Source: an uncultured Clostridia bacterium (lineage in GTDB: Bacteria > Bacillota > Clostridia > TANB77 > CAG-508). From it: DNA of 64,000 nt. The DNA lies in the NCBI GenBank assembly GCA_934182465.1, contig CAKPRG010000001.1:273549-337548 (forward strand), in the 5' to 3' direction. Within the stretch, counting starts at the first letter, position 1; every line of letters starts with the position of its first letter. The notes below the pieces were generated by a model, which saw only the letters and a program-made list of their open reading frames with translations, made no database searches and was not told the origin of the DNA. The position numbers and the translations under genes were made by a program. Positions 22,654-59,100 of this stretch are shown piece after piece.

Positions 22654-22983
22654 ATTATTCATAGATAGTACCTCCTTAATATTCTAATATAATATATGCA
22701 AAAGATAAAAAAAGTTGAATAAATTGATAAAATTTCATAAAATTACTAAATTTTGAAAAAGTAATAAAAATTTAATATTGAAAAAATGTTATTCAAAACC
22801 TTAAAGTTCCGTAATAAAAAAATTAATGAAAGCTTGTAATAATTGAAAAAAGGCAATTTTTGGCTATGTACAAAATAAAAAAATTGATTTAGTATAAATA
22901 TATATATTAAATAAAGTTAGGTAAAAAAGTGCTATAAATAGTGCTAATAAAGATAACTAAAGAAAAAGGAAAGGGATTTGAAT

Positions 22984-28743: not shown

Positions 28744-31700
28744 ATGAAAAATAAAAAAATATTGAAATTATTAATAGTATTTTTAATAATATTAAGTCTT
28801 TGTACTGTACTATTGAGAAATACATGGGTATATGCAGAAGATGAAGAAAATATTGATGAAAATTACGTCCAAGAAGAACCAACTAATGAAGAATCAACAT
28901 CAAACGAAGATGAAAATAATGCTATAGCAAGTTTAGATGCAGAACAAGAAAGTAAAATAAACGAAGAATTACAGCAAATGCTAACAGGAATTCCATGGAG
29001 TTATCCAAGTAATCCAATAACAAATAAAACGTTTAATAGTAATCCAAATTATTTCTGTTATCAACATGGTACACCATATGCAACTTCATCAAATATAGAT
29101 GGATTTCAAGGAAATTATAATTATATGAATGCAAGTGGATTAGCATATGTATATAATAACTTAACATTAAAGAAGCCAAGCATAGGTACAAAAATAAGTA
29201 CTGATTATAAGCAAAAAGGAACAAATCCAGGTACAAGAGTTAGCTATTCTAATTTCCATTATAGAAAAGTAAGTCAAAGTTATAGTGGTGGTTTTGCTTT
29301 TGTTTTAGCAAAATATAAACAAACTGCAGCACAGAGAGCTAGTACTGGTTATACAAATGATCCATTACAACATGCTGTATGGGCTCATGCGAGACAATTA
29401 GGAAGTGGAGAAAGTAATCCATTAGCACCTGCTATGCAAGCATTTGATGACTATTATAGTGCTGCAATGAATAATCCAAATATAAATGTAACACCAGGCC
29501 AAAATGTAGGTACAGTAAAAAGTGGTAATAATTATGTTGTTGGACCATTCAAGATGAGTAATTATGTAAGAGCAGTAGATTATAAATACTATGAACCAAC
29601 AGGATACTCAGGTGGACAAAGTTCAGGCAGTGAAAATGAAAAAGATAAAAATAATAATCCTAAATGGAATACAGGAAATACAAATTTACAAGCTAAATTT
29701 GGAACAGCTGCTAATATGCAAGGAACGATTATTAAAGCTGTTGCTGTATTAAATAATGGTAATGAAATAGAATTTCCTGTTCCAGATCCAGGAGCAACAT
29801 TTAATATATCAATTCCTATTTCAAAAGTAGGTAGTGCAGACGAATTAAAAAGTATAAAATTCACATATCAAAGAATTTATGCAACAGGAAATGGTACTTG
29901 GTATGAAGGAAAACAAATTGAACTTACATGGAGTCAAACAAATGTAGATAAAGGATGTTCAACATATTATTGTCAAAATCAAACACCAGGATATGCAACA
30001 CACCATTCATCATCTGTAGGTGGTACCCATAGTTGTACATATACATGGACTTGTTATGATCATTACTCAGGACATGGATGTGGTGGTCATACTAGATATT
30101 GTGGTGGTTGTAAAACAAGAAGTTGGACAGATTCTGAAGGAAAAAAACATAGTGAAAGCTATTGTCCAGGTCATACATATACAATATCAGGTTGTCATTG
30201 CTCTTGTCCAGGACATTCTGCAACACATACATCAACATTTAAATGCTCTCATGGTTACACAAATTGTAGATCTTTTTCTTGGAAAGTTACTAGTATAAAT
30301 GAGGATCATTGCCAAGATGGATTAGAAGCATATGGTAGTTTAGGATCTACAAGAAAAATATATAAAATAAATGTAAATGTGCCACTTACAACAAATGTAT
30401 CAATTTACAAATATATTGTGAAAGTAAATCATCAAAATAATGATTACATTTATGGTAGACAAGATGCAGATGATACAAGTAGAAAAACAAAGACAGATAA
30501 AAATACTAATACAGTAAAAGTTGAAAGAGGAGATAGAATAACATATAGAATAGATATTGTTAATAGTTCAAGATTTGATATTAGACTAAAAGTTAAAGAC
30601 TATTTCCCTTCAAATGTAGAACAAGTTACAGTACCAGGCTCTTTCTATACAGAGAATCAACCAGGAGGAAATCAAAATGGAGCATGGATACAAGTAAACG
30701 CTAGAAAGACAAAAACATTTTATGTTACTGTAGTAGCAAATGCTTTAGAAAGTAGTTATACTAATACGGTTCAAATAATTACAAGAAATGATACAAATCC
30801 ACATATGGAATATGTAAAATATGGTGGACATGGTCCTGGACCAATAGTAAATTTAAGCAATAGATTAAGTGATTCAGATACATATACAATAAAAGAATAT
30901 CAAGTAAACATTAATAAACATATTACGAGTGTAGAACATACAACAAATAGTGAAAAAACTTATGATTCAACAGCACCTAATGAAAGTAACTTAAAAACAA
31001 ATCAAACTGCTGGAACAAGAGTAAATAGAACAGATGAACAAAATCAGAGTGATCCAGTATATGTAGAATATGGTGATAGGGTTTATTATGAAATAGATGT
31101 ATATAATACAAATAATAAAGATTATAGACAAACTAATAATTCGGCTAAACCATATTGGAAGCCAGATATGATACACGTAAATGTAGAAGATACATTGCCA
31201 GCAAAATATAGTGATTTGAAAATAACAATAGAAAATGCAATGAATTCACCTTCTATAACAAAACCAGGTACAAGTAGCACATCAGGTGGAACAATAAAAA
31301 TTAGTGATCTACAAATTGCTGCTAATACACATGCAACAATAAAAATATCATTAGTTGTTGAAGAAGTAAAAGCAGATACTGTTTGTGGAAATACTGCTAA
31401 AATAGTAGGAAAAATAAATAATATAAATAATCGTTATATTAAGAATAATGAAACAGCTTCTCGTTTAACATCAACAGATTATTATAAATTGAATGATTAT
31501 TACATCAATATAGACAAATATGTAAGTTCTTATGATGGATTAATAATGAATCAAAATAATCAAAATCAATTAACAAATGAAACAAGTACAATCAATACAG
31601 ACGAATCTGTTGAAAGACGTGGAAAGAGTGATACAGAAAAAGAAAATTCACCATTTAAGGTTGAAAAAACAGAAACTGTAACATACTCAATTAGATTAGA

Positions 31701-34700
31701 TAATAAATCAACAAATAATGCTACAAAACCAGCAACAAAAGTCAGAACAACAGATATTACTGAAACATTACAACAAGGCTTAGAATTCCAAAATGATGTA
31801 ACAGCAAAAATATTTAAGTCAGATGGTTCAGTAAGAGTAGATAATATAAAAGTAAATATTACAGATAAAGGAAATAATGTATATAACTTAAATATTGGTA
31901 ATAAACAAGGAGAAGAATATACAACATTAAATCCTGGAGAATATATTATTTACTATGTAAAAGTAAAAGTAACAGAAAGCAACATGTATTTATACAACTT
32001 AGAAAATAAAGCAGAAATTACAACTTTAACAAACATAAACAATACTGAAAAAAATCCACAAAGAGTTGTAACTGAGCAAAATAAATATCCAATCAAAAAA
32101 TCTAGCGAATATGTAAAACAAAAAGATTTAGTAATAGCTGGTAAGGTTTGGTTAGATAAAAATCAAGATGGTTATATGACAGAAGATGAAACAAAATTCA
32201 AAGATATTGTAGTACATTTATATGATGCAAAAACAGACAAAATAGTAAATACAGTAAGAACAAATGAAAATGGACTATATACTTTTGGAAGAGTTTATAA
32301 AGCATCAACAAAATATGATGGAAGTTCTGTAATAGGAACTATAGATGAAGAAGGCAACAAGAAAAATTATAAACAAGGTACAGATTTAAATAGTTATTAT
32401 GTAGAATTTGAATATGATGGCTTAATGTATAAATCAACAGAAATTTATTCAAATGATAAACATATATCTGAAAGTTGGTTACAACCAACAGATAGTGGAA
32501 ACTACATTAATGATTCAAATGCTTACGAATTTAAAGATGTAAGAGAACAATTTAACACAAATTATGAAACAATAGGATATAATGTAGGATACAAAGTTGG
32601 AGAAGATAAAAATTCAAATTCTGGAACAACTACATTAGAATATAGCAAAGATAATCATAATAGTACATTATTAGAAGACAGAAACAGATTAATGACAGCA
32701 AGAAGTTTCATAATTTCAAAAGATAAAAACAAATCAGATGGAACAGCTAACAATACAAAATCATTATGGTTATATCCATTAAATAGTTCAAATTATAAAT
32801 TAGCTGAAACAGAATATTTAAAATATATAAACTTAGGACTTGAAGAAAGAGAAGATATAGATATTTCTTTAAAGAAAGATGTATATCAAGTAAAAACAAC
32901 AATTAATGGTGAAGAAGTAATATATGATTACAATCAAGAAAATACAAATAGTGAATATACAAATGATTATGTAATTAAAAAAGCTTATGGAATAGATTTC
33001 TATGAATCTGATTACAAATACAGATATGAACAATACAAAAATGAAAAAGTACAAAATTACAAAGGAAAAGAAAGTGAATTAAATGTTGAGGTAACATTTA
33101 AGATAGCTATTACAAATGAAAACATAAGAGAAAATGAACCATATAGAGAAAATAAAGATGTACCAGTAGATGTTACAATAGATGAACTTGCAGATTACTA
33201 TGATACAAACTTTATGAAATATACTGGTGAAGAGAACAATACAATAAAAGTAAAAACTAAAGATGGTGATTACTTAAAAGATAAAGATATTAAAATTGCA
33301 GAAGCTTGGTATAAATCAAGTGAAGATTCAACTGAATCTAGACAATTAACTTTGTCAAATACTTCAAATTACAATAACGAAAGAAACTTTACTGCAGATG
33401 GATATAATACATTATATATTAGAGGTTTTGATGATATTAAGATTAAAGAAGGCGAAACAGGATATGTATTTGTAAAATATGTATTAGATAAAGAAGAAGG
33501 TACTAGAAACTTAAAGATAACAGATTCAAAAGCAAATAATTTAGGGATTGAAGGAATTGCCGAAATAAATGCTTACTCAACATGGTATGGTGCCGTATCT
33601 GAAGAATATAAGAAAGAAAATCCAGCATACGAAGAAAACTATCCAGCAGGATTAGTTGATAAAGATTCAAATCCAGGAAATATCGGTGATGACAATGGAG
33701 TTTCAACATCAGCAACTGGAAATAAGAGTGCAGATGATACAGGATTATATGAAGATGATACATATAAAACAGGAATACAAATGAATGTAAAAACTATAAC
33801 AAATCCACCAGAAAATGGTGATCCACCAAGTATTGAACAATACAGAGTTTTATCAGGATTTGTATGGGATGATTCAAGATCAGAAAGTATAAATGATAGC
33901 GAAGATAATGTTCAATATGCTGGTAATGGTTTATACAATACAAGTGATACAAAACTTGGAGAAGCAAAATCAAATAAAAATGTATTAGAATTATTAGATA
34001 AATCAAGCGACTATAAAAATATAGTAAATAGATTTAATAGTCCAACAGCAGAACAAAATGACTTCGTAGTAAAAGACGCAAAAGCACAATTAATTGAAAT
34101 TGTAAAAATACCAGAAAATGAAGTTGATCCTTCAAGTGGAGGAACAAAATATTACGAAGAAATAGTAGATGCTAATTGGGCAAGAGTTCAAGAAACAAGA
34201 ACAAACAGCAATGGTAAATATGTATTAAGTGGATTTATTCCAGGTTACTATACAGTAAGATTTACTTATGGTGATACAACTTCAGATGAAATGATGACAT
34301 TTAACGGACAAGATTACAAAACAACAAAATATACAACAGGTGTAGAAAATTATACATATAAACCAGAAGCTGGTGAAACAGAATTAAATACAGAAAAAAT
34401 AAAAGAATATGATAAAATAATGGAAGCATTAGAGGCAGAAAATAAATCTGATGCAAGAGATGACGAAATTGATAGACTAAATGCTATTTCATATTCAGAA
34501 ATAATGACAAATGAAAAAGCTGATACTTTAAAAGGTATAAGTATACCAGAAGGAACAGATAAAGAAGCAAGAAAAGAAACTCTAGCAGAAAAAACTAAGA
34601 TGAATGCAGAAACTGTAACATTCTATGTAAAACCAGAAAAACTAGATTCTTATGAATCAAATGTAACTTATGCAACTTGTACAAATATACCATATGATAA

Positions 34701-36117
34701 AATTAAGACAAGAACATATAATGTAAAAAATATAGATATGGGTATAGAATATAGACCAGAAGCAGAAATTTCTTTAAATAAAGAAATTAAGACAATTGAA
34801 TTAGTTACTTCAGATTCAGAAAAAATTATGAAAGTTGCATTTAAAGATGTAGTAGATTCAGACGGAAAGAAGAAATTAAATGATGCAACAGGTAGAATTG
34901 AAAGAGAAGTTGATTTCGATAATTCAGTCGGATTAGAAAATATACAATTTATTTGCAACAATAACAGACTACAAGGTTTTGCATATATAAATGTAGATGA
35001 CGAAATTTTACAAGGAAGTAAAATCAGTGTAGAATATGAATTTACAGTAACTAACATTAGTGAAGTAGATAGAATCAGTAAAAACTTAGATGTGTTAAGA
35101 TACAAAGAAAATAGTGAAAATGCAATATCAAGTAATAGTACTGATAGAGCAAAATATGTTGAAGAGAATAATTATTTAGGATCTGAAACAGCTGAAAAAT
35201 ATTTACACGATATAGTTTATGAAAAAGATAATAGATATGCATCAGATGATGAATATAGAACTATTGAAAAGACAATGACAACAGGAGATGACAATTATTA
35301 TGGTAGATATTTAGGAAGCACATACTTTACAAGCAATGTTACAGAAAAAGATACAGTAGTAGACTTAAAGATAGATAAGATTTTAGACTACATAGATACA
35401 GACTTATCATTCAAATCATCAAGTAACCAAGATACAGATCATTTCTGGGAAACAACAACTTCAGAAGCTTTAAGAACTGGTGATGGAATAAATGGAAGCT
35501 TAGTAGATCGTAACTTATTCGTAAATGTAAACAAAGATACTACAAATAATACAGAAGACTTAAAATTAGTAAACTTAAAAGGTGTAGCATTTGATTCAGA
35601 CTTAATGAGTAACTTAGCTGTAAGTATGGATGATAGAAACAATGATGATCAAACAGATAATGTAATAAATAAACAATTATCAAAATTCTTAGAACCAAAA
35701 ACAGTAAAAACTACAGCAGAAGAATATTCAGGATATGTAGCATTAACAACAGAAAAATTAATTTCATCAGAAACAGATACTGATAATCTAAGATTTGAAA
35801 ATATAGCAGAGATAATTCAATATACATGTACATCAGGTAGAAGAACAAACTTTGCAACAACAATAGGAAATGTAAATGTAAAAGCAAGTACAGGTGAATA
35901 TATCGAATCATTAAATGAAAAAGATACATCTGCAACAGAGGTAATTACATTATCACCACCAACAGGTTTAGAAAGATATCACAACATAATCTTAAATACA
36001 GTACAAGAAAATTCAAAGACAATAATTATATCAGTAATTGCAATAATAGTAGCCGTAAGCGCTACGGGAGCAATACCTGTATTGATCAAGAAGTATAAAA
36101 ATAGACCAATTAAGTAG
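28744..36117 (+). CDS. Giant surface protein B1 (2457 aa): signal peptide, N-terminal Cys...Gln module (possibly a thioester domain), Cys/His-rich insert, SdrD-B-like domains, SPPTG sorting signal
   Basis: RBS AAGGAGGTG 13 nt after the A1 stop. Two GxxWxDxNxDGxxxxxE prealbumin-like motifs. C-terminal LSPPTG, hydrophobic segment, KKYKNR. Confidence 0.8.
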   Translation: MKNKKILKLLIVFLIILSLCTVLLRNTWVYAEDEENIDENYVQEEPTNEESTSNEDENNAIASLDAEQESKINEELQQMLTGIPWSYPSNPITNKTFNSNPNYFCYQHGTPYATSSNIDGFQGNYNYMNASGLAYVYNNLTLKKPSIGTKISTDYKQKGTNPGTRVSYSNFHYRKVSQSYSGGFAFVLAKYKQTAAQRASTGYTNDPLQHAVWAHARQLGSGESNPLAPAMQAFDDYYSAAMNNPNINVTPGQNVGTVKSGNNYVVGPFKMSNYVRAVDYKYYEPTGYSGGQSSGSENEKDKNNNPKWNTGNTNLQAKFGTAANMQGTIIKAVAVLNNGNEIEFPVPDPGATFNISIPISKVGSADELKSIKFTYQRIYATGNGTWYEGKQIELTWSQTNVDKGCSTYYCQNQTPGYATHHSSSVGGTHSCTYTWTCYDHYSGHGCGGHTRYCGGCKTRSWTDSEGKKHSESYCPGHTYTISGCHCSCPGHSATHTSTFKCSHGYTNCRSFSWKVTSINEDHCQDGLEAYGSLGSTRKIYKINVNVPLTTNVSIYKYIVKVNHQNNDYIYGRQDADDTSRKTKTDKNTNTVKVERGDRITYRIDIVNSSRFDIRLKVKDYFPSNVEQVTVPGSFYTENQPGGNQNGAWIQVNARKTKTFYVTVVANALESSYTNTVQIITRNDTNPHMEYVKYGGHGPGPIVNLSNRLSDSDTYTIKEYQVNINKHITSVEHTTNSEKTYDSTAPNESNLKTNQTAGTRVNRTDEQNQSDPVYVEYGDRVYYEIDVYNTNNKDYRQTNNSAKPYWKPDMIHVNVEDTLPAKYSDLKITIENAMNSPSITKPGTSSTSGGTIKISDLQIAANTHATIKISLVVEEVKADTVCGNTAKIVGKINNINNRYIKNNETASRLTSTDYYKLNDYYINIDKYVSSYDGLIMNQNNQNQLTNETSTINTDESVERRGKSDTEKENSPFKVEKTETVTYSIRLDNKSTNNATKPATKVRTTDITETLQQGLEFQNDVTAKIFKSDGSVRVDNIKVNITDKGNNVYNLNIGNKQGEEYTTLNPGEYIIYYVKVKVTESNMYLYNLENKAEITTLTNINNTEKNPQRVVTEQNKYPIKKSSEYVKQKDLVIAGKVWLDKNQDGYMTEDETKFKDIVVHLYDAKTDKIVNTVRTNENGLYTFGRVYKASTKYDGSSVIGTIDEEGNKKNYKQGTDLNSYYVEFEYDGLMYKSTEIYSNDKHISESWLQPTDSGNYINDSNAYEFKDVREQFNTNYETIGYNVGYKVGEDKNSNSGTTTLEYSKDNHNSTLLEDRNRLMTARSFIISKDKNKSDGTANNTKSLWLYPLNSSNYKLAETEYLKYINLGLEEREDIDISLKKDVYQVKTTINGEEVIYDYNQENTNSEYTNDYVIKKAYGIDFYESDYKYRYEQYKNEKVQNYKGKESELNVEVTFKIAITNENIRENEPYRENKDVPVDVTIDELADYYDTNFMKYTGEENNTIKVKTKDGDYLKDKDIKIAEAWYKSSEDSTESRQLTLSNTSNYNNERNFTADGYNTLYIRGFDDIKIKEGETGYVFVKYVLDKEEGTRNLKITDSKANNLGIEGIAEINAYSTWYGAVSEEYKKENPAYEENYPAGLVDKDSNPGNIGDDNGVSTSATGNKSADDTGLYEDDTYKTGIQMNVKTITNPPENGDPPSIEQYRVLSGFVWDDSRSESINDSEDNVQYAGNGLYNTSDTKLGEAKSNKNVLELLDKSSDYKNIVNRFNSPTAEQNDFVVKDAKAQLIEIVKIPENEVDPSSGGTKYYEEIVDANWARVQETRTNSNGKYVLSGFIPGYYTVRFTYGDTTSDEMMTFNGQDYKTTKYTTGVENYTYKPEAGETELNTEKIKEYDKIMEALEAENKSDARDDEIDRLNAISYSEIMTNEKADTLKGISIPEGTDKEARKETLAEKTKMNAETVTFYVKPEKLDSYESNVTYATCTNIPYDKIKTRTYNVKNIDMGIEYRPEAEISLNKEIKTIELVTSDSEKIMKVAFKDVVDSDGKKKLNDATGRIEREVDFDNSVGLENIQFICNNNRLQGFAYINVDDEILQGSKISVEYEFTVTNISEVDRISKNLDVLRYKENSENAISSNSTDRAKYVEENNYLGSETAEKYLHDIVYEKDNRYASDDEYRTIEKTMTTGDDNYYGRYLGSTYFTSNVTEKDTVVDLKIDKILDYIDTDLSFKSSSNQDTDHFWETTTSEALRTGDGINGSLVDRNLFVNVNKDTTNNTEDLKLVNLKGVAFDSDLMSNLAVSMDDRNNDDQTDNVINKQLSKFLEPKTVKTTAEEYSGYVALTTEKLISSETDTDNLRFENIAEIIQYTCTSGRRTNFATTIGNVNVKASTGEYIESLNEKDTSATEVITLSPPTGLERYHNIILNTVQENSKTIIISVIAIIVAVSATGAIPVLIKKYKNRPIK

Positions 36118-41666: not shown

Positions 41667-44600
41667 ATGAAAAATAAAAAAAGTAGATTAGTTATATGTT
41701 TTATACTAACATGCATAATTGTATTAAGCACCATAATTGGTTTAGCAACTTATGTAAGTGCTAAAGTTGATACAAGTAAATCACAATCTTATTCACAAGG
41801 AAATGGAAATCCTGCACCAGGATATATTACAGTAAGTGATTTGTGGACAAGATATGACATATTATGTTGTGCACACGGAGTTCATTTACCAAGTGCAAAT
41901 CAAACTGTACTTAATTCAGAAAAAGGTAGTGTTACAGAAGCTTATTTAACACAAAACGATATTGGTAAAAAGAATTTTGAACATACTGTTGATTCAACAA
42001 GTAGTTCAGCAAATTCACCATTTAAGTCAGCATCATATACAAATGAGACTTTTGGATATTACAAAGTAAATAATACTTATGTAGCAAAACCAATGGAAGC
42101 ATATATCTTAGCTGAAATGGCAAAAGAACAAATAGTTAGAGGACATGATAGTAATGTTCAAATTGCTTGGTGGAACACAGAAGCTGGTATGAAAGGTGTA
42201 ACAGCTTCTGCTCCAGAAGCATTAACATTAGAAGCACAAGATTTTGAAGCATATATTAAAAAAATTGCAAAATCTACAGATCCAAGCACATATACAACTC
42301 AACAATATGAATTTGAAGTAGATGGAACAAAATATACTGGTCAAGTACAAGCACCAGAATTAAATTACGAACCAAAATATAACAAAGATGCAAACCAAGA
42401 TGGTAAAGAAGACAGATATGATAATATAACAGTTTCTTGGAATGGAGAAAAATATAAAATAGGTCCATTCTCTGTAAATTATGTTGAAAGCAAAGTAAAA
42501 CATGAAGGTAGAGATGAAGTAATGTTTGCAGGTATTACAGATGCTAAAATCTATACAGATTTAGGTGAAGTACCAGCAGACAAATGGAAATTTGTATGGC
42601 TAGAAGGACAAAGAGACGCAAACGATACACAAGAATATCCTCATACAAATGAAGTATTTTATATAGAAATGGATTTTATAGAAAATGCAAAATATTTCAA
42701 AAACTTACATTTCGATTTTAAATATATGAATGCTGGTGGACAATATGATGAACTAGCAGGAACATATTTTAAAGCAACATGGAAACCAATGTCAAAAGCA
42801 CAATATTGTGCAGGTGGATATACAGATAGTGATGGTGATGATCATCCATGTTCACATGGATTCATGAGCAGACATGTTAAATCTTGGACATATTGGTTAC
42901 AATTAACAAGCTTAACATCTGATGAATCACAATTATTAGCTTATGGTATTGTTGGTGCTAGATGGTACAATCCAGCACAATTAGATTTAGACAACAGTAC
43001 AGACTTACCAAAAGATCATAAAGGAAAAGTAGAAATCAAAAAAGTCGTAGTTGATGAAAATGGAAATGAGCTTACATCACTAGATGATTCAAAATTCACA
43101 TTTAAGCTTTATATAAATGATAAATTATACGATACAATTAGAGTAAAAGCTAACGAATCAGTTACAGAAACAATTAAATGGAAAGATGGAGAAGAAACTC
43201 CAACATATAGAATTGAAGAAGTAAATCTTCCAGATGAATATACAGTAAAAGAAATAGAAAATGCTTCTGGTACAATGGCAGAAGAAGCAACAGTTAAAAT
43301 AAAAGCTATTAACAAAGTTAAACCACATAAAGGATACTTAAAAATAGAGAAAAAAGTAACAGAAGTTGCAGAACAAGATGAAACATATAAATTTAATATT
43401 TATATAGATAGTGTTTTAAAAGATCAAATTGCAATAACAATTCCAGCAGGTCAAACAGGAAATAGTGTTACAGTAGGACCTTATGAATGGAATGGAAGTG
43501 ATGCTCCAGTATATAGAGTAGAAGAAACAGAAATTCCAGAAAATGTAACACAATTCAACATGATAAATGAAAAAGGAAAGTTAGTTGCAGGAGATGAAGC
43601 TACACCAGTTACAGTAACAGCAATAAATGATAATAGTGATAATAAAGATCATGAAGGAACAATAGAAATTACAAAACAAGTTACAGAATTAGCTAAAGAA
43701 GACGAAATATATAAATTTAATGTTTATATAAATGGTGAATTAAAAGACCAAGTACAAATTACTGTTCCAGCAGGTCAAACATCAAATACAGTAACAGTTG
43801 GACCATTCAAATGGAAAGGTGATAAAGCACCAAGCTATGAAGTAAAAGAAGTTGAAATTCCATCAGGTGTTAAACAAGTTAATATTGTTAACTCAACAGG
43901 AACTTTAATAGATGGAAAAAATGGACAAAAAGTTATTGTAACAGCTATAAATAATAATGGTGGAGATAAACCAGAAGAAAATGAAGCAAAATTAGTTATT
44001 ACTAAAAAGGTTGACGGAAATGCATCAACAGATAAACAATTTAAATTTAAAATTACTATTGATGGAACAGTTTATTATGCACAAATAACAAAAGATTCAA
44101 GTTGGTCACAAACAGTAAAATGGAAAGAAGGAGAACAAGCTCCAACTTATAGTGTAGAAGAAATTGATATTCCAGATGGATATGAAAAAGTAAGTATTAC
44201 AAATGCATCTGGAACATTAGAAGCTGATAAAGATGTATATGTAGAAGCTTTAAATAAAGGTGATGATAAAGAATATTCTGGAACAATTCGTGTTACTAAA
44301 AAAGTAGAAAATTCAACAGATACAAATAAGAAATTCAAATTTAAAATTACTATTGGAGATACAACTTATACAAAAGAATTAGCAAATGGTGAAAGTTGGA
44401 CTGAAAATGTAAAATGGATTGGAAAAGATAATGCACCTAAGTATAAAGTAGAAGAAGTTGAAGTACCAGATGGATATAGCATTGTAAGTGTAGAAAATGC
44501 CGAAGGTACAATGGAAGAAAATAAAACAGTTATAGTAAAGGCAATAAATAGAGACAATGATGATAAAGAACATCAAGGTCAAATAACAGTAAAAAAAGAA

Positions 44601-47600
44601 GTACAAATTGATGATAAAGTAAAAGATGAAGCAATAGATGGAACATTCGATTTTGAAGTTACTATAATGGGAACATTCGAAATGAATGGAGAGAGCGTTG
44701 TAAATGGAAGTAGAACAATAAAACAAAGTGTAAAAGCTGGTGGAAGTTTTACAACTCCAACAATAAAATGGAAAGGCAAAAATGCTCCAACATATAAAGT
44801 AACAGAAACAAATTTACCAGATGGTTGGAAATTAGTTGATATTACAAATGCTTCTGGATTAGTAGAAGATAATACAAATATTGAAGCAGTTTGTACAAAC
44901 GAATATAAAATAACAGTAGAATATGAATTAACAATGCAAATGGGTGGTATGGTATGGCATGATGTAGCATTAAACCCAGATGACAAAAATACAGAAAATT
45001 CAAAACCAAATGGAAAATATGATGCAGGTGTAGAAGAAGGAATTGAAAAAGCACAAGTTACAATAAAAAGATACTTATGTGATGACAATGGAAATGTAAT
45101 TTCATGTACAGGAAATGCTAAAGCTTGGGATAAAGATGGAAATGAAATTTCATGGCCAATTTATACAGACATAGATGGTACATGGGATGTAGCAAAAGTT
45201 GAAATAACAGTAGCTAAAAATGGAGAACAAGGAAGAGTAAGATATGGAGTTGAATTTGGATATGATGGACAAACTTATGAACCAACTACATTCTTAGTTA
45301 CAGGTAATGGAGATGCAAATAGCTACAAAAAAGCATCAAGAGTTGATAGAGGAAACTTCTTCTATGATTCAATGGCAATTGATAATGAAAATGATAGAAA
45401 AGAATTTAATGCAAAATTCACAAATATAACAGGTGATGAAGCAATTAACTCAAACGGAGAAACAACTGGATACAGTACAGATGCAAATGGAAATAAAACA
45501 GCAACATTAGATTATGTATCAACAGATTCATTAAATACAATGGGAACAACAAGAAAAGAATCAACATTAGTTACAACAACAGATGACCACTATATTAAAG
45601 ATGACTTCTTAATGAAAGCAGAAACAACAACAGGTGGATTAACATTCCCATTTGATACAGCAATTCACTTAGAGAGTATAGATAAGAAAATTAATGAATT
45701 AGGAGCAACACATATTTACAAATATTCAGCAACATATCCATACTTACTAAGTATAAACTTAGGATTAGTTACAAGAAAAGAAGCTGAACTTGCAACTACA
45801 AAAGATGTATATTCAGCAGCAGTAGTAATTAATCAAAAAATGTTAAATTATCAATATAATCAAGCAATTGATTTTGAAAATGTAAAATATCAAGACTACT
45901 TAAACTTACAAGTTGAAGTAGCAGATGCAGATATAGAATATACATTAGATTTATATAAAACAGATTACTATTACAGAGCTAAAATATATGAAGAAAATGC
46001 AGAAGTAGCTGGAGCATTAAAGAGATTTTATAAATCTTTAGGATATACAGCAGAAAACGCATTAGATTCAGAATTAGATCTAGATGTTTATGTAACATAT
46101 AAAGTAAGTGTATATAATGATTCACAAACATATTTTGCAACAGTAAATGAAATAACAGATTACTTTGATGAAGATTATGAATTAGTTGAAGTTGAAAAGA
46201 GCAGATATTTACAAGAAGCAAATGGTGTTGCAGTAAATCAAGTAACAAAAATTGCTGATAGTCCATACTATAAAGTTTTAAGACAACAAGTAAATGGAGA
46301 TAATGTAGCTTGGGAAACAACTAACGATAATCAAAACCCAGTAAAATGGGAAAATGCAGGAACAGTTAAAGGTTCAGATGGAGTTACTTATAATAAAATA
46401 AAAACAAGTTCTATAAAAGATGAAATATTAGCATCTGGTGAAAGAATTGATTTATACTTAACATTTAGAGTAAAAACAGATGAAACTTCAGCTGATGGAG
46501 TATTAAATTGTGTAAGATTAGGAAGTAAAGCAAATGTGGCTGAAATTTCAAATTACACAACATATAACTCAAATAATAAATCAGATATAGCAGGTAAAGT
46601 TGATAAAGATTCAGCTCCAAACAATGTTAATATCGAAGAATTTAATGAAAAAACATGGTATGAAGATGATACAGATTCAGCACCAGTAATCACATTATCT
46701 TTATATGACACATCAAGAGAAGTAAATGGTATTGCTTGGGAAGATAAAGAAGACACAAAAATAGACAATGGATATGGACAAATAGTAGGTAATGGAGTAT
46801 ATGATCCAGGCGAAGAATTAATAGCAAATTTAACTACAGAATTATGGGAGAAAGTTAGAGTTAAGAAAATTGACGATAGCGGAAATGAAGTTAAAGATGC
46901 AAATGGAAACTTAGTATATACAGAATATGATTTCTTATGGCCAGAAGATTATGAAATCCAAGCTGGTAAAACATTAAAAGAATTAACAGGATTTGATTCA
47001 ACAACTAAGACAGGTGTTGATCAAGGAAATAAAGGACAATATGGATTTACAGGAGTTCCAACAGGTAACTATGTAGTAAGATTTGTATATGGTGATAGTG
47101 ATGAAACTTCAGCACCAGCAAACTATGATAAAGATGGTATTCCAGCAGTTTACAATGGACAAGATTTCAAGACAGTAGCTTATGAAACTGGATTTAATGG
47201 AATAACAGATACAAACTCAGACGGATATGTAGATAATGAATGGCATAACTTAGAAAATGAAGATTTAGCAAATGCTAGAGTTTCAGATGCTAGAGATAGT
47301 GAAGCAAGAAGACTTGAAATTACATCAAAATCTAGAATTTTAACAAACTCAAATACAACAATTTTAAATACAGCAAATGATAGAAATGCAGACCATACAA
47401 AATTATATGAAGAATACTATATGACAGCAGATACAGCAAAAATCAATTTGAATATTGAAAATATGGTAAGCTTAAAGAAACAAAAAGTTAATGTTACAAA
47501 TCCAACAACAGGAGCAGTAGAAGAAATAGCAGCTGGTGAAGAAAAACAAGTTGGTGGAATTACAGTAAACTATGTAAAAGGTAAAGTAAACTTAGCAAAT

Positions 47601-48911
47601 GGTGGCAATACATCATTAGATAGATTAGACTTTACTTACAAAGTAAATAACATAGATGTTGGTCTTGAAGAAAGAGCAAGTACAGAAATTAAATTAGATA
47701 AACAAATTGAAAATATAACATTAACAGACAATACTGGAGCAGTTATTTTAAAAGCAGATTATGATTTAATCTATACTCCAAAATTTGATGAAAAAACAGG
47801 AAAAACATCTATAAAAGTAGATGCAAAATTAAATCCTGAAACATCAATTGGAACAGATAATTTACAAGCATTAAATAGAGATGAAGCAGCAGGATTACAA
47901 AACTTTAGATATATTTACTACGATAACTCAATTGCTCAATCATTAACATTAAATGTAACTTATAGATTTACAGCATTAAACTTAGGTGAAGTTGATAGAA
48001 TTGGATTATTAGGAAATAGTAAATTTGATGAACCACAAACTATATTAGAAGAAGTTAAGAAATTATCTGAATCTGATTATTCATACAATACAAGAGAAAA
48101 GACATTTAGTAAAACTGCAAATGCAGATGGAAAAGTTTATGCAGATTCATTTGGTAAATATTTAGGAAGTATTTACTATGAAGGCTCTTATGCAAAAGCA
48201 GAATTAGATGATATAGTAACAACAAGAATAGATACTTTAATCGATTATGTTGATAATAATGCAATCTTTAAGGCAGAAGAAAATAATGGATTAAATAATA
48301 GTTGGAGAGTAATTACAGTTGATGAGTTAGCAGCAGATGATTCTGATATAATAGACAAAAATATAATTACAACTTATGAAGATGGAACAAAGAATATAGA
48401 AGATTCAAAAGGTGCAACTTATGAAACAGCTGAAAGATATAATATCATCTTAAGTATAGAAAATAACGATAGTTCTGCAACAGAAATGTCAAATAAAGAC
48501 TTCAATGTAAAATTAATTCCATATAGTGCTACAAAAGCATTTGATGTAAATAGTGATTTAGATTACAACTATACAACAGCAATGAAGATGAATATGACTA
48601 GATCAATTGATGCAGAAGTTAATGATGAAGACTTATCATTTGATAATATGGCAGAAATAGTTAAATTAGACAATACAGCAGGTAGAAGAGATGTTACAAC
48701 AATTGCAGGTAATGCAAACCCTAAAGAAGGTGAATTTGCAACATCATTAAAAGAGAGAGACGCAAGTGCAACAGAATTAATTACATTCTCTCCACCAACT
48801 GGTATGAATGCAAAAACAATTTTAGCAATCCAAATTGCATTAGTTACAATTTTAGGATTAGGAATTGTATCAGCTGGTATAATTGTTATTAAGAAAAAAG
48901 TTCTTAAATAA
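41667..48911 (+). CDS. Giant surface protein B2 (2414 aa), paralog of B1: N-terminal Cys...Gln module, about five tandem Cna-B/E-box-like domains, SdrD-B-like domains, SPPTG sorting signal
   Basis: ATG 41667 lies 2 nt after the A2 stop, with RBS AGAGAGGTG. Repeats carry YxVEExxxPxGY. C-terminal FSPPTG, hydrophobic segment, KKKVLK. Confidence 0.8.
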   Translation: MKNKKSRLVICFILTCIIVLSTIIGLATYVSAKVDTSKSQSYSQGNGNPAPGYITVSDLWTRYDILCCAHGVHLPSANQTVLNSEKGSVTEAYLTQNDIGKKNFEHTVDSTSSSANSPFKSASYTNETFGYYKVNNTYVAKPMEAYILAEMAKEQIVRGHDSNVQIAWWNTEAGMKGVTASAPEALTLEAQDFEAYIKKIAKSTDPSTYTTQQYEFEVDGTKYTGQVQAPELNYEPKYNKDANQDGKEDRYDNITVSWNGEKYKIGPFSVNYVESKVKHEGRDEVMFAGITDAKIYTDLGEVPADKWKFVWLEGQRDANDTQEYPHTNEVFYIEMDFIENAKYFKNLHFDFKYMNAGGQYDELAGTYFKATWKPMSKAQYCAGGYTDSDGDDHPCSHGFMSRHVKSWTYWLQLTSLTSDESQLLAYGIVGARWYNPAQLDLDNSTDLPKDHKGKVEIKKVVVDENGNELTSLDDSKFTFKLYINDKLYDTIRVKANESVTETIKWKDGEETPTYRIEEVNLPDEYTVKEIENASGTMAEEATVKIKAINKVKPHKGYLKIEKKVTEVAEQDETYKFNIYIDSVLKDQIAITIPAGQTGNSVTVGPYEWNGSDAPVYRVEETEIPENVTQFNMINEKGKLVAGDEATPVTVTAINDNSDNKDHEGTIEITKQVTELAKEDEIYKFNVYINGELKDQVQITVPAGQTSNTVTVGPFKWKGDKAPSYEVKEVEIPSGVKQVNIVNSTGTLIDGKNGQKVIVTAINNNGGDKPEENEAKLVITKKVDGNASTDKQFKFKITIDGTVYYAQITKDSSWSQTVKWKEGEQAPTYSVEEIDIPDGYEKVSITNASGTLEADKDVYVEALNKGDDKEYSGTIRVTKKVENSTDTNKKFKFKITIGDTTYTKELANGESWTENVKWIGKDNAPKYKVEEVEVPDGYSIVSVENAEGTMEENKTVIVKAINRDNDDKEHQGQITVKKEVQIDDKVKDEAIDGTFDFEVTIMGTFEMNGESVVNGSRTIKQSVKAGGSFTTPTIKWKGKNAPTYKVTETNLPDGWKLVDITNASGLVEDNTNIEAVCTNEYKITVEYELTMQMGGMVWHDVALNPDDKNTENSKPNGKYDAGVEEGIEKAQVTIKRYLCDDNGNVISCTGNAKAWDKDGNEISWPIYTDIDGTWDVAKVEITVAKNGEQGRVRYGVEFGYDGQTYEPTTFLVTGNGDANSYKKASRVDRGNFFYDSMAIDNENDRKEFNAKFTNITGDEAINSNGETTGYSTDANGNKTATLDYVSTDSLNTMGTTRKESTLVTTTDDHYIKDDFLMKAETTTGGLTFPFDTAIHLESIDKKINELGATHIYKYSATYPYLLSINLGLVTRKEAELATTKDVYSAAVVINQKMLNYQYNQAIDFENVKYQDYLNLQVEVADADIEYTLDLYKTDYYYRAKIYEENAEVAGALKRFYKSLGYTAENALDSELDLDVYVTYKVSVYNDSQTYFATVNEITDYFDEDYELVEVEKSRYLQEANGVAVNQVTKIADSPYYKVLRQQVNGDNVAWETTNDNQNPVKWENAGTVKGSDGVTYNKIKTSSIKDEILASGERIDLYLTFRVKTDETSADGVLNCVRLGSKANVAEISNYTTYNSNNKSDIAGKVDKDSAPNNVNIEEFNEKTWYEDDTDSAPVITLSLYDTSREVNGIAWEDKEDTKIDNGYGQIVGNGVYDPGEELIANLTTELWEKVRVKKIDDSGNEVKDANGNLVYTEYDFLWPEDYEIQAGKTLKELTGFDSTTKTGVDQGNKGQYGFTGVPTGNYVVRFVYGDSDETSAPANYDKDGIPAVYNGQDFKTVAYETGFNGITDTNSDGYVDNEWHNLENEDLANARVSDARDSEARRLEITSKSRILTNSNTTILNTANDRNADHTKLYEEYYMTADTAKINLNIENMVSLKKQKVNVTNPTTGAVEEIAAGEEKQVGGITVNYVKGKVNLANGGNTSLDRLDFTYKVNNIDVGLEERASTEIKLDKQIENITLTDNTGAVILKADYDLIYTPKFDEKTGKTSIKVDAKLNPETSIGTDNLQALNRDEAAGLQNFRYIYYDNSIAQSLTLNVTYRFTALNLGEVDRIGLLGNSKFDEPQTILEEVKKLSESDYSYNTREKTFSKTANADGKVYADSFGKYLGSIYYEGSYAKAELDDIVTTRIDTLIDYVDNNAIFKAEENNGLNNSWRVITVDELAADDSDIIDKNIITTYEDGTKNIEDSKGATYETAERYNIILSIENNDSSATEMSNKDFNVKLIPYSATKAFDVNSDLDYNYTTAMKMNMTRSIDAEVNDEDLSFDNMAEIVKLDNTAGRRDVTTIAGNANPKEGEFATSLKERDASATELITFSPPTGMNAKTILAIQIALVTILGLGIVSAGIIVIKKKVLK

Positions 48912-56197: not shown

Positions 56198-59100
56198 ATG
56201 AATAAAAAAATGTTAATCTCAATAGCATTAATTTTCGTTATGTTATTGAACTATGTCGTACCTTTTTCATTAGCATATGATGAAGCAACAAGCGATATAG
56301 AAATTACATTTAATGGCAATTTGTATGCAGCAATTAAAAAGAATTTAGTTGATGCAGGTATAGATGCTTCAGAATATAATGATGCACAACGTACTATGAA
56401 AATTAGCCAATCTGCTATAGATAGTGTAACAAGTTTCAACTTATCTAATAGTGGTATATCTGATTTAACAGGATTAGATACATTTAAGAATGTAACTTCT
56501 TTAGACTTGTCAGCTAATGAATTAGATTCAGACAGCAATCTAGAAGTATTAAATTCATTAAATTTAAAATTTCTAGATTTATCATCTAACAAACTTTCAG
56601 ATGTTAGTATGATAACAAACATTTCTACAATTCAAACATTAAACTTACATAACCAAAAGTTTAATATAATTCAAATTGTAGAAATTGATGAAGAAACTGA
56701 ATCAGACCAATTAGTAGAAGCAACATACGATTTACCTCAAATTTTAAGCTATGGTGGTTTATTAAAACCAGAATGGTTACCAGAAACAAAATATCAAAAT
56801 GGTTCAAATCCAGCACCATATGTTAATTGGACAAAATTTGATGGTAAAAAAATTACAATAACAACTGGTTCAAAATCAGAATCAAATTATACACCATATT
56901 ATGGAATGACAAAAGTAGGAGTAGAAGTAACTGATTCTACAAATACATTATACAATTCAAAAATTAATTTATACTATATAACAGTAAGTTCTGATGAAAG
57001 AGGAATTATCTTTAAAGATGAAAATCTTTATAAAGCTGTTAAAGAACAATTAACAAAAGCTCAAACTGTAAATACAGATTTAAGCAAATATACTGATAAA
57101 GGAAATTTATATGCAAGAGCATATGATGAACCATTAGTATTAGTTGTTAGTATAAACGATTTAATTAACAAAATTCCAAGTTTAAAATTAGTAGACAGAA
57201 AAATTAAAGATCTAACAGGATTAGAAATGTTTGTTGGACTTGAAAAAGAATTAAACTTAGAAGGAAACTATATTGAAGATATAGAAAAAATAATTGAACT
57301 AAAGAGAAAGAAACTTGAAGAACAAGAAAAATTAAGAGCTAAAGTTCAAAAACAAATAGCATATATTAAAGAAAGTGTAGATGCTATTGAAGAAGCAAAG
57401 AAAAATGTGGAAAGTGAAACTAAAAAAGTTACTACATTAGTAACAGAAGAGCAAACTTTAAAAACAGAAATTTCAAAATTAGAAGATGAAATTAATACTT
57501 TAAATGCAGAAACAACAACATTAAATAATAATTTACCAACATACAAAACAACATTAGAAAATGCAAAAGATAATTTAGCACAAAAACAAAATGAATTAAC
57601 ATTATTAAATAATGAGTTGGTAACATTAAATAATAATTTATCAAAAGCATCAACAACTGATGAAAAAGACAAAATAAAAGCTCAAATTGAAGCTAAAAAA
57701 GCAGAAAAAGAAGCAAAACAAATTGAAGTTGATCAAGCAAAAGATGCTGTAACAACAGCAGAAAAACAAGTAACTGATACAGAAGCAAAAATAAAATCAA
57801 ACACAGAAGCAGTTACATCAAAAACAAAAGACTTAAATAGTAAAAAAACAGATTTATCTAAAAAATCAAATTCTATTAGTGAATCTTACCAAGTAATTGC
57901 TAACAACAATAATACAGCTGATTTACATAGAGAATATTTAAAAGCAAAATTAGCAAGATTATATGAAATATATAAAAAATCTTATAAATTAGCTAGACTT
58001 GCAACAGTACAATTAAGTACATTAACAGATGAAGAATTTGAAAATTTAACTTATGAAAATGCAAAAAGTATTTTTGAAGCACAAACATCAAGATTAGCTG
58101 ATATAGAAAATAATTTAGCAGCTTATGAATCTTCATATGTTATTAAAGAATTTAATATACCAACACTATCAAATGTAACAGTAAATGGTGATACAGAAGG
58201 AACATCATCAACAAAAACAGTTGCAATTGAAAATCCAATAGCTACATATTTTAAAGAATATGCAAAAAATCATGAAGATTGGAAATTATCTGACATAAAA
58301 GGATTCTTATTAAAAGTAAGATATATGTCAACAGTATTAGAAATGATGAATTATTGTACAATTGAAAGATTATACAATGGAACAACAACATGTTATGCAG
58401 AAGAATACTTAAATAGTGAAATTGCAACAAAAACATGGAATGGTGAAAGTACAAGTGATTTAACAAAAATTAAATCAAATTTAAATACAATTAAATCAAC
58501 TTTTGCAGACACATATGGACATCAATGTACAGGAGCTGTATCTTATGATGGAAATAATGATATTTACGCATTAGCTAAAAAATATAGTACAGCAACTTCA
58601 GAAGAAATAAATGCTTATGTAACAATACCAATGTTAAAAGTTTTAAATGTTAGAAGAAATCTAATTGAATCAATTGATGGAATTGAAGAATTAGATGAAT
58701 TACAAGAATTATATGCAGGAAATAATGAACTTGTAAATATTGAAAGTGTTGACTGGACAAAAATGGTAAATTTAAAGAAATTAGATTTATCATATAACAG
58801 TATAAGCGAAATTAAATGCTTAGAAGTTTTAGCAAAATTAGAAGAATTAGATTTATCTAAAAACTTAATTGCAGGTGCATTTAACTTTACTATCTCTGGA
58901 ATGCCAAAATTGAAAAAATTAAATATGTCATACAATGCAATTAATGATATTGAATATTTAAGAACACAATTAACATTCGTAGCAAGAGGTGAAGGATTTG
59001 ATGATATAGCATCATACTTAAATGCAGGAAAATTTGATGTAAGATTTTACGGTCAAATATTATCAATGAACTTAGATTTAGTTCAAATGGGTAGAGCTAC

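What the first reader, a model, noticed from the sequence alone, without database searches (positions are those of the whole stretch)
41830..42180. B2 N-terminus: the same Cys-x-x-His-Gly ... Gln-x-Ala-x-Trp module (second copy of the putative thioester-like domain)
B2 has ILCCAHG (Cys70/71; tgt tgt at 41865-41870) and NVQIAWW (Gln168; caa at 42159-42161). These align with B1 YFCYQHG...LQHAVW at the same Cys-Gln spacing of 98 vs 104 aa, and share the preceding phi-phi-LA...K helix (AYILAEMAKEQ vs FAFVLAKYKQ). Conservation of exactly these residues, while the rest of the N-termini has diverged, argues that they are functional.
Basis: seen in the sequence. Interest (0 to 1): 0.65.

Follow-up and report, generated by a model that had tools for sequence, protein, structure and literature searches.

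The report
Thioester-like tip of giant adhesins
The Cys and Gln motifs are real and conserved in the tip domain of a large, unannotated family of giant wall-anchored surface proteins from uncultured gut Clostridia; they resemble the covalent "thioester" adhesin domain of Gram-positive pathogens, but no profile or fold search confirmed that relationship.

Summary
B1 has FCYQHG (Cys105) and LQHAVW (Gln209). Gapped alignments pair Cys with Cys and Gln with Gln.

A profile search found 224 cluster representatives, nearly all proteins of 2000-3900 aa. Across them Cys67 is kept in 101/105, Gln165 in 128/135 and Trp169 in 122/134. Cys68 is not conserved.

B2 has the build of a TIE-type adhesin: signal peptide, N-terminal tip, six DUF7601 (CnaB-like) repeats with invariant Lys/Glu/Asn, and an SPPTG sorting signal.

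Two motifs and the order of predicted secondary structure match thioester domains (TEDs). In TEDs, however, the Q-x-x-Φ-W glutamine is a helper on helix α2, not the bond partner. A third conserved glutamine, Gln422 at a long hairpin tip, exists in the PPTG subfamily but not in the EPTG subfamily.

Pfam TED models, hhalign against a class II TED profile, and Foldseek of two AlphaFold models against the PDB all found nothing.

Best reading, at confidence 0.4: a divergent, TED-like covalent-adhesion tip whose glutamine partner is unresolved.

The parts
41667..48911 (+). B2 gene (2414 aa): giant secreted, wall-anchored surface protein
   Evidence: ORF and translation. The exact protein is present in NCBI/ENA/Logan assemblies, in a 98-member cluster at 90% identity. 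It is paralogous to B1 over about 1250 C-terminal residues, E 8e-62.
41667..41762 (+). Signal peptide (residues 1-32, ...YVSA|KVD)
   Evidence: Read from the sequence: basic N-region, hydrophobic core, VSA cleavage-type site. The cleavage site is inferred, not computed.
41799..42374 (+). Predicted as strands, then three helices, then a β-hairpin.
   Evidence: AlphaFold models. Family alignment A5. No Pfam or NCBIfam family matches.
41862..41879 (+). Motif 1, LCCAHG. Cys67 (codon 41865-41867) is the conserved Cys; Cys68 is not conserved; Gly71 is conserved.
   Evidence: Cys67 101/105, position 68 Ser 37/Cys 28, Gly71 96/106. In full-length members Cys is kept in 31/31 of the PPTG subfamily and 13/13 of the EPTG subfamily.
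42090..42125 (+). Helix α1, PMEAYILAEMAK (residues 142-153), with conserved Pro142, Glu144, Ala145, Tyr146 and Leu148
   Evidence: Conservation counts. Predicted helix H110-121 in model 1. Aligns with B1 FAFVLAKYKQ.
42156..42173 (+). Motif 2, VQIAWW (residues 164-169; Gln165 codon 42159-42161), on the short middle helix. It matches the TED TQxxΦW helper motif.
   Evidence: Gln 128/135, Ala 128/135, Trp169 122/134. Predicted helix. Motif definition and role taken from PMC4450167 and PMC6194298.
42375..42782 (+). β-sandwich module (residues 237-372) with conserved GPF, Y, F-x-G-I, P...E-x-F-Y-I and a terminal W
   Evidence: Conserved columns. All-β in model 1 with pLDDT 85-95. The same module also occurs alone at internal positions of other giant proteins.
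42807..42875 (+). Cys/His loop, C381-x13-C395-S-H-G-x3-x-H403. In B1 it is expanded to a roughly 110-aa Cys-rich insert.
   Evidence: Column counts. B1 Cys positions. Function not tested.
42876..43004 (+). Long β-hairpin (residues 404-446) with motif 3, S-Q422-L-L-A-Y-G...A-R-W-Y, at its tip (Gln422 codon 42930-42932). Candidate TED-type bond-forming Gln.
   Evidence: Model 1 has strands at model residues 372-388 and 392-414, with pLDDT 87-94. Gln is kept in 58/70 aligned members, 38/40 and 29/31 in the PPTG subfamily, and has no counterpart in the EPTG subfamily.
43023..44909 (+). Stalk: six tandem repeats of about 95-110 aa (residues 453-1081), CnaB-like DUF7601 isopeptide-type domains
   Evidence: Pfam DUF7601 at 36.4 and 31.4 bits (cut-off 27) for two repeats, plus weak SpaA and DUF5979 hits. 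Invariant Lys7, Glu66 and Asn97 across the six repeats. DUF7601 is listed as a Lys/Glu/Asn isopeptide family in PMC12617251.
48789..48908 (+). C-terminal sorting signal: SPPTG, then a hydrophobic segment, then a KKKVLK tail
   Evidence: Sequence. The [ST][FL][ST]PPTG or FSEPTG motif, followed by a membrane segment and a basic tail, is conserved across long family members. The (S/P)PxTG motif is the C. difficile sortase motif (PMC8610288).
29053..29070 (+). B1 counterpart of motif 1, FCYQHG. Cys105 (codon 29056-29058) is the only Cys in the mature B1 N-lobe.
29365..29382 (+). B1 counterpart of motif 2, LQHAVW (Gln209)
30310..30336 (+). B1 counterpart of motif 3, C-Q524-D-G-L-E-A-Y-G
   Evidence: The full-length BLASTP segment aligns it with B2 SQLLAYG. 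The PPTG subfamily alignment agrees.

Best explanation
B2, and its paralogue B1, is a giant surface adhesin built like a TIE protein. It is exported by a signal peptide and attached to the cell wall by a sortase through SPPTG. A stalk of isopeptide-type β-domains holds it away from the cell. At the far end is a tip of about 400 aa made of an α/β lobe, a β-sandwich and a long hairpin.

I propose that the tip is a very divergent, thioester-domain-like covalent warhead. In this reading the lone conserved Cys67 forms an internal thioester with a glutamine side chain, releasing ammonia. The bond is then attacked by an amine, such as a lysine, on a target surface, which locks the bacterium on covalently.

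By analogy with characterised TEDs, the Q-x-A-W-W helix (Gln165/Trp169) packs against the Cys and is a helper. The bonding Gln would then be Gln422 at the tip of the long hairpin that follows the inserted sandwich, which is a class II-like layout. Because the EPTG subfamily keeps Cys and Gln165 but has no Gln422 equivalent, Gln165 itself remains a live alternative partner.

Shown here: the motifs, their conservation, the domain order, the stalk and anchor features, and the predicted secondary structure.

Inferred only: the TED-like fold, the proximity of Cys to either Gln, the existence of a thioester, and the target.
For: 1. Residue conservation. Cys67 is kept in 101/105, Gln165 in 128/135 and Trp169 in 122/134 of a family with 224 representatives. 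Both are invariant in strain variants.

2. Cysteine is otherwise rare. The roughly 2380-aa mature B2 has 8 Cys. Cys105 is the only Cys in the mature B1 N-lobe, so it has no disulfide partner there.

3. Motif matches. B1 FCYQ fits [YFL]CΦζ. VQIAWW and LQHAVW fit TQxxΦW apart from the Thr. [SA]Q-x-L-A resembles the weak ΦQζΦΦ motif. The three motifs occur in the TED order (PMC4450167, PMC6194298).

4. Predicted secondary structure. Both AlphaFold models place several strands, then three helices with the Gln motif on the middle helix, then a hairpin, then a sandwich, then an extended hairpin. This parallels the class II description of a three-helix bundle, an inserted β-sandwich and an extended P-Q hairpin carrying the Gln (PMC6194298).

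5. Dependence on the downstream part. The β-region of the N-lobe drops from pLDDT about 90 to about 60 when the sandwich and hairpin are left out. This is consistent with the downstream hairpin completing the lobe, but the two alignments also differ, so the inference is weak.

6. Architecture typical of TED proteins. N-terminal position, signal peptide, tandem isopeptide-type repeats with invariant Lys/Glu/Asn and a conserved sortase-type signal.

7. Partial co-loss. The Cys-less members P0142, P0144 and P0102 keep motif 2 but lack motif 3, or have Glu at that position.

8. A repeated but non-significant hint. The single best local hhalign match of three family profiles to a class II TED profile is always Cys on Cys: lC~~hG~~LP against fCid~~k~~P.
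Against: - No TED or TED_2 Pfam hit for B1, B2 or 14 family members, even at E<=10. The control TIEpLS20 does pass both models.
- No NCBIfam hit, although the control also fails there, so this test is uninformative.
- hhalign probability below 1% against a class II TED profile.
- Foldseek of the 440-residue model (pLDDT 82) and the 192-residue model (pLDDT 78) against the PDB, which should hold the TED crystal structures named in PMC6194298, gave nothing better than E 0.035 and 1.3, with TM-scores near 0.1.
- The hairpin directly after α3, where class I TEDs carry the bonding Gln, is variable or absent and has no conserved Gln.
- Gln422 is not universal. The EPTG subfamily has none.
- B2's LCCA is a poor [YFL]CΦζ match.
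- The few Cys substitutions are to Ala or Ser, which also fits a small buried core residue.
Confidence: 0.4

Rival explanations
1. This is a non-covalent adhesin tip or structural cap. The Cys, the P-x-E-A-Y-x-L helix and the Q-x-A-W-W helix are simply the buried core of a new α/β fold, or line a non-covalent ligand pocket. No thioester forms, and Cys67 is a free, buried thiol.
For: - Every homology and fold test against TEDs was negative.
- The rare Cys replacements are the small residues Ala and Ser, as expected for a packed core position.
- Cys-less members keep the Gln motif, so that motif has a role independent of the Cys.
- The conserved residues around the motifs are mostly hydrophobic or aromatic: Leu, Tyr, Ala, Trp, Phe.
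Against: - Cys is otherwise very rare in these exported proteins, 8 in about 2380 residues of B2 and a median of 0.27% beyond residue 500 across long members. Yet this one is kept in 96% of a family whose members fall to about 20% identity.
- Three TED-like motifs in TED order, at the tip of a TIE-type architecture, would be a large coincidence.
Confidence: 0.33
2. Cys67 forms the thioester directly with Gln165 of the Q-x-A-W-W helix, in a new arrangement in which the helix glutamine is the bond partner.
For: - Cys and this Gln are the only Cys/Gln columns conserved at 80% or more in the first ~700 residues of both subfamilies: PPTG 31/31 and 30/31, EPTG 13/13 and 13/13.
- In TEDs the only universally conserved residues are the bonding pair (PMC6194298).
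- In TED structures the equivalent helix Gln already touches the Cys backbone (PMC4450167), so the geometry would be close.
Against: - In every characterised TED this Gln is a helper and dispensable for bond formation (PMC4450167, PMC6194298).
- Five Cys-less members all retain the Gln.
Confidence: 0.17
3. The N-lobe is a cysteine-dependent enzyme, such as a peptidase, transglutaminase or amidase, displayed at the tip, with Cys67 as the catalytic nucleophile.
For: - A lone, highly conserved Cys followed by x-x-[HKR]-G.
- A conserved acidic residue, Glu144, and a conserved Gln that could in principle form an oxyanion hole.
Against: - There is no conserved His or Asp to complete a dyad or triad. 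Position 70 is His in only 44/106, otherwise Lys or Arg.
- The Cys is predicted in a strand or coil, not at a helix N-terminus.
- No peptidase or transglutaminase family or fold was hit.
Confidence: 0.07
4. The B1/B2 resemblance is a chance match of short motifs in two diverged, low-complexity N-termini.
For: The pairwise BLASTP E-value for the N-termini alone is weak, 0.058.
Against: - Family-wide conservation.
- Robust gapped alignments, 0 of 4000 shuffles, and the motif pair occurring only in B1 and B2 within the window.
- A profile built from B2-like sequences plus B1 recovers 224 representatives.
Confidence: 0.01

Closest known systems
Class II thioester domains of TIE proteins (BaTIE PDB 6FWV, SaTIE, EfmTIE86, TIEpLS20)
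   Same: - N-terminal position in a secreted, sortase-signal protein with tandem isopeptide-type stalk domains.
- A Cys motif, then a three-helix region with a Q-x-x-Φ-W helix, then an inserted β-sandwich, then an extended hairpin carrying a conserved Gln.
- Cys followed eight residues later by a conserved Pro in both families.
   Different: - No significant HMM, profile-profile or Foldseek similarity.
- Cys-to-candidate-Gln spacing is about 355 aa, against 171-204 aa in class II TEDs.
- The candidate Gln sits at a hairpin turn rather than in a strand, and is missing from one subfamily.
- The YYGYGG-type motif of the pLS20 group is absent.
- The proteins are 3-5 times longer.
Class I thioester domains (SfbI, FbaB, Cpa, CpTIE; Pfam TED PF08341)
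   Same: - [YFL]CΦζ-like motif (B1 FCYQ) and TQxxΦW-like motif (VQIAWW, LQHAVW), separated by about 100 aa.
- A hairpin after the third helix in B2.
   Different: - The post-helix hairpin carries no conserved Gln and is absent in B1 and other members.
- No Pfam match.
- The Thr of TQxxΦW is replaced by Val, Ile or Leu.
Clostridioides difficile sortase substrates with (S/P)PxTG, for example CD3246, which has a class II TED-like middle domain (PMC8610288)
   Same: - A Clostridia-type SPxTG sorting motif followed by a membrane segment and a basic tail.
- The adhesin context.
   Different: - B proteins are much larger.
- No sortase gene and no c-di-GMP riboswitch were found in the window.
- The tip is not recognisably a TED.
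DUF7601, SpaA and CnaB-like intramolecular isopeptide domains (PMC12617251)
   Same: The six B2 stalk repeats match DUF7601 above the Pfam threshold and keep the Lys/Glu/Asn triad.
   Different: This concerns the stalk only, not the Cys/Gln module. Isopeptide bonds are predicted, not shown.

Membership tests
Thioester domain (TED; Pfam PF08341/PF20610) | [YFL]CΦζ motif with the bonding Cys in a β-strand context | tested here: inconclusive
   B1 FCYQ fits. B2 LCCA fits only at the Leu and the Cys. The family consensus is [LF]-C-[SC]-[QAE]-[HKR]-G. The Cys lies in a short bridge or coil in the models.
Thioester domain (TED; Pfam PF08341/PF20610) | TQxxΦW motif on the middle helix of a three-helix region | tested here: met
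   VQIAWW and LQHAVW. Gln 128/135, Trp 122/134. It lies on the second of three predicted helices. The Thr is replaced by Val, Ile or Leu.
Thioester domain (TED; Pfam PF08341/PF20610) | Universally conserved bonding Gln (weak ΦQζΦΦ) on a β-strand C-terminal to the helices | tested here: inconclusive
   No conserved Gln in the hairpin after α3. Gln422 ([SA]Q-x-L-A) is conserved in the PPTG subfamily at 29/31 and 38/40 but has no counterpart in the EPTG subfamily.
Thioester domain (TED; Pfam PF08341/PF20610) | Significant match to the curated TED HMMs | tested here: not met
   No TED or TED_2 hit for B1 or B2 at E<=0.1, nor for 14 members at E<=10. The positive control TIEpLS20 scores 28.8 and 23.6 bits, above both cut-offs.
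Thioester domain (TED; Pfam PF08341/PF20610) | Profile-profile similarity to known TEDs | tested here: not met
   hhalign against a 9-sequence class II TED alignment gives probability 0.3-0.6%. Only a 10-15 column Cys...Pro segment aligns. The TED profile is narrow (pLS20 group only), and class I was not tested.
Thioester domain (TED; Pfam PF08341/PF20610) | TED fold (β-barrel plus three-helix bundle) by structure comparison | tested here: not met
Thioester domain (TED; Pfam PF08341/PF20610) | Cys-Gln thioester: 17 Da mass deficit, reactivity with amines, continuous density | not testable with these tools
   This needs protein chemistry or coordinates.
TIE-type adhesin architecture | Signal peptide, N-terminal tip domain, tandem isopeptide or ester domains, C-terminal sortase signal | tested here: met
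   Signal peptide read from the sequence. Six DUF7601 repeats with invariant Lys/Glu/Asn. SdrD_B-like segments. SPPTG, then a membrane segment, then KKK, conserved family-wide.
Papain-like / transglutaminase-like cysteine enzymes | Conserved Cys-His(-Asp/Asn) catalytic residues, with the Cys at a helix N-terminus | tested here: not met
   There is no conserved His or Asp in the lobe. His70 is present in 44/106. The Cys is not at a helix start. No family or fold hit.
Complement C3 / α2-macroglobulin-type thioester | Contiguous C-G-E-Q motif, with Cys and Gln three residues apart | tested here: not met
   B2 has C-C-A-H and B1 has C-Y-Q-H. Position +2 is Gln in only 27/105. No A2M or TED-type Pfam hit.

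The most novel reading that the evidence does not exclude
This family is a third, previously unrecognised structural class of bacterial thioester domain, or an independent invention of Cys-Gln chemistry. Either the helix glutamine of the Q-x-A-W-W motif is itself the bond partner, or a distant hairpin-tip Gln is delivered across a large inserted sandwich. It would arm the tips of 2000-3900-residue adhesins in uncultured gut Clostridia of humans, mice and ruminants, and is invisible to current TED models.
Probability: 0.3. Interest if true: 0.75.

Novelty: new variant of a known kind. Interest (0 to 1): 0.5.

Why it matters
Covalent, thioester-mediated adhesion has so far been documented mainly in pathogens and in one conjugative plasmid. 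All known cases are recognised through two Pfam models.

If this unannotated family of at least 224 clusters at 50% identity, drawn from gut-commensal Clostridia, really carries a thioester, three things follow. Covalent host, mucus or cell-cell attachment would be a feature of abundant uncultured gut anaerobes. The structural definition of TEDs would widen. A new reactive Cys-Gln scaffold would become available for protein-ligation tools.

The claim is directly testable with one recombinant fragment and a mass spectrometer.

If it is not a thioester, the result is still useful. It would be a new, well-delimited tip domain with a lone conserved Cys, for which current annotation offers nothing.

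Tried and rejected
- **Pfam and NCBIfam** scans of B1, B2, A1 and A2, and of 14 and 27 family N-domains. No TED or TQXA hit. NCBIfam also misses the TIEpLS20 control, so it is uninformative.
- **phmmer and hmmsearch against PDB sequences** with B1 and B2 N-termini, the family profile and the stalk. Nothing found. The TED control also finds no PDB TED by phmmer.
- **Foldseek against the PDB** with both AlphaFold models. Only noise.
- **The search for homologous proteins with the TIEpLS20 TED**, intended to build a broad TED profile. It returned nothing. I built a narrower class II profile from plasmid tblastn hits instead.
- **The search for homologous proteins with the N-lobe profile**, looking for bridging sequences. 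Only 4 hits, none with TED annotation.
- **tblastn of the B2 tip against plasmids.** No match.
- **Source names.** None of the sources gives any name for B1, B2 or eight relatives.
- **Sortase gene or c-di-GMP riboswitch near the locus.** None found.
- **Rejected readings:** a C3/α2M-type CGEQ thioester, a papain-like enzyme, a disulfide (B1's N-lobe has a single Cys) and lipidation (the Cys lies 35 residues past the signal peptide).
- **Contact prediction by coevolution.** Not attempted; about 100 effective sequences is too few.
Full report
**Observation.** The tgt tgt codons lie at 41865-41870 and the caa codon at 42159-42161. They encode ILCCAHG and NVQIAWW in the long ORF that I call B2.

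That GTG sits inside the AGAGGTG ribosome-binding site, and homologues start MKN... at the ATG at 41667. The correct numbers are therefore Cys67/Cys68 and Gln165.

B1 (28744-36117) has YFCYQHG (Cys105) and LQHAVW (Gln209). The spacings are 98 and 104 aa.

Global and local BLOSUM62 alignments at three ordinary gap settings pair Cys105 with Cys67 and Gln209 with Gln165. BLASTP aligns the helix plus Gln block. MAFFT of the trimmed domains makes Cys, Gly+4, Gln, Ala and Trp invariant columns. The strict motif pair occurs nowhere else in the six frames of the window, and in 0 of 4000 shuffles.

**Context and architecture.** The locus lies on a Clostridia-type chromosome between mreBCD/PBP2/minC and spoIIE. 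It holds four giant genes on the + strand:
- A1, 1917 aa
- B1, 2457 aa
- A2, 1724 aa
- B2, 2414 aa

A and B are nearly abutting: the A2 stop is at 41665 and the B2 ATG at 41667. B1 and B2 are paralogues over about 1250 C-terminal residues, E 8e-62.

B2 reads as follows:
- a signal peptide;
- a tip of about 400 aa;
- six tandem repeats, two of which match Pfam DUF7601 above threshold, and all of which keep an invariant Lys, Glu and Asn. DUF7601 is a CnaB-like family predicted to form Lys-Asn isopeptide bonds (PMC12617251);
- a long C-terminal region with SdrD_B-like segments;
- SPPTG, then a hydrophobic segment, then KKK.

That C-terminal signal is conserved across the family as ...PPTG or ...FSEPTG. 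It matches the (S/P)PxTG sortase motif of C. difficile (PMC8610288). No sortase gene lies in the window.

This is the layout described for TED-bearing TIE proteins: an N-terminal reactive domain on a stalk of cross-linked domains, anchored by sortase (PMC4450167).

**The family.** A word-indexed search found only six relatives. An exhaustive profile search found 224 representatives at E<=1e-3, almost all 2000-3900 aa.

Six genome loci come from uncultured Clostridia MAGs sampled from Hadza humans, mice and a water deer cecum, among other sources. Two that I examined keep the A-B-spoIIE synteny. No source gives these proteins a name. No Pfam or NCBIfam model covers the tip.

Conservation across the family:

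| Position | Conserved in |
|---|---|
| Cys67 | 101/105 |
| Gly71 | 96/106 |
| Gln165 | 128/135 |
| Ala167 | 128/135 |
| Trp169 | 122/134 |

The helix P-x-E-A-Y-[IV]-L is also conserved. Cys68 is not: that position is Ser in 37 and Cys in 28.

Cys is otherwise rare in these proteins. Cys105 is the only Cys in the mature B1 N-lobe.

**Comparison with thioester domains.** The TED literature defines three motifs (PMC4450167, PMC6194298):
- [YFL]CΦζ, which carries the bonding Cys on a strand;
- TQxxΦW on helix α2, whose Gln and Trp hydrogen-bond the Cys backbone but are not needed for bond formation;
- a weak ΦQζΦΦ on a later strand, which carries the bonding Gln.

AlphaFold models of B2 33-472 (pLDDT 82, pTM 0.75) and B2 45-236 (pLDDT 78) place the Gln motif on the middle of three helices. 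Strands precede the helices and a hairpin follows them. That hairpin is variable, is missing in B1 and others, and has no conserved Gln.

After the inserted β-sandwich and a Cys/His loop comes a long, confidently predicted hairpin. Its tip carries S-Q422-L-L-A-Y-G...ARWY. This Gln is kept in 58/70 aligned members, and in 38/40 and 29/31 of the PPTG subfamily, which includes B1.

That order is the class II TED order: helices, then an inserted sandwich, then an extended hairpin with the Gln (PMC6194298). However, the EPTG subfamily keeps Cys (13/13) and Gln165 (13/13) and has no counterpart of Gln422.

**Membership tests.** All tests of membership were negative.
- Pfam TED and TED_2 do not hit, whereas the bona fide class II TED of pLS20 passes both.
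- hhalign of three versions of the family profile against a nine-sequence class II TED alignment built from plasmid homologues gives probabilities below 1%. The single best local match is always the Cys motif on the Cys motif.
- Foldseek of both models against the PDB gives nothing better than E 0.035 and 1.3.

**Mechanism and rivals.** My best reading, at confidence 0.4, is a divergent TED-like covalent warhead at the tip of a sortase-anchored, isopeptide-stiffened fibre. Cys67 would be the thioester Cys and the Q-x-A-W-W helix would pack against it.

The main rival, at 0.33, is a non-covalent tip whose conserved residues are core or pocket residues. The rare Cys replacements are Ala or Ser, and Cys-less members keep the Gln motif.

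A cysteine enzyme is unlikely because there is no conserved His or Asp. Chance is excluded.

**Novelty.** The family is unannotated, and no paper describing it turned up in two literature searches. It fits the known kind "TIE-type adhesin", but its tip fails every TED membership test that could be run. I file it as a new variant of a known kind, not as a TED member.

A single recombinant fragment with a C67A control and intact-mass MS would settle the central question.

Noticed in passing
window 29956-30282 (B1 residues 405-513) and 42807-42875 (B2 residues 381-403): B1 carries a Cys/His-rich insert of about 110 aa with 16 Cys. At the same place B2 has only C-x13-C-S-H-G-x3-x-H. In the family the two Cys, the Gly and the His are moderately conserved (45/72, 35/76, 60/78, 36/73). 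This could be a metal site or a disulfide knot between the sandwich and the long hairpin.
   Followed up: partly
B1 residues 1-500 (window 28744-30243): Among 15 strain-level variants, 43 of the 95 variable sites of B1 fall in the first 500 residues, 5-12 per 100 aa against about 2.6 elsewhere. The B2 tip is almost invariant. The Cys and Gln motifs are invariant in both. This suggests diversifying pressure on the B1 tip.
   Followed up: partly
window 28731/28744 and 41665/41667; L001, L003: A and B genes are nearly abutting pairs. The order A-like, B-like, spoIIE is kept in the two distant MAG loci examined. A1 and A2 end in VATGN and IKTGE followed by a membrane segment and a basic tail. They may also be sortase substrates and partners of B in one fibre.
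   Followed up: partly
window 21736-22977: The 1.2 kb between minC and A1 holds no minD or minE and no Rfam match, including no c-di-GMP riboswitch. It contains only small minus-strand ORFs, the largest 148 aa at 21972-22418.
   Followed up: partly
B2 residues 237-372 (window 42375-42782); P0086 1202-1333, P0104 1381-1534: The GPF...FYI β-sandwich module of the tip also occurs alone at internal positions of other giant proteins. It is therefore an independent domain, not part of a single indivisible tip fold.
   Followed up: no
family members P0142, P0144, P0102, P0117, P0039: Five members replace the Cys with Ala, Ser or Arg and all keep the Q-x-A helix. P0142 and P0144 lack a recognisable motif 3, and P0102 has Glu at the Gln422 column. 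This is possible co-loss of Cys and the third-motif Gln.
   Followed up: partly
window 56198-59956: A 1252-aa protein with leucine-rich repeats and a C-terminal type I dockerin suggests the organism has a cellulosome-like surface assembly system.
   Followed up: no
A1, the stretch MSNNNNNNNNNSNSSNNNN... just upstream of its SdrD_B-like domain (Pfam match at residues 1597-1711): A long poly-Asn/Ser low-complexity tract lies just before the SdrD_B-like domain of A1.
   Followed up: no
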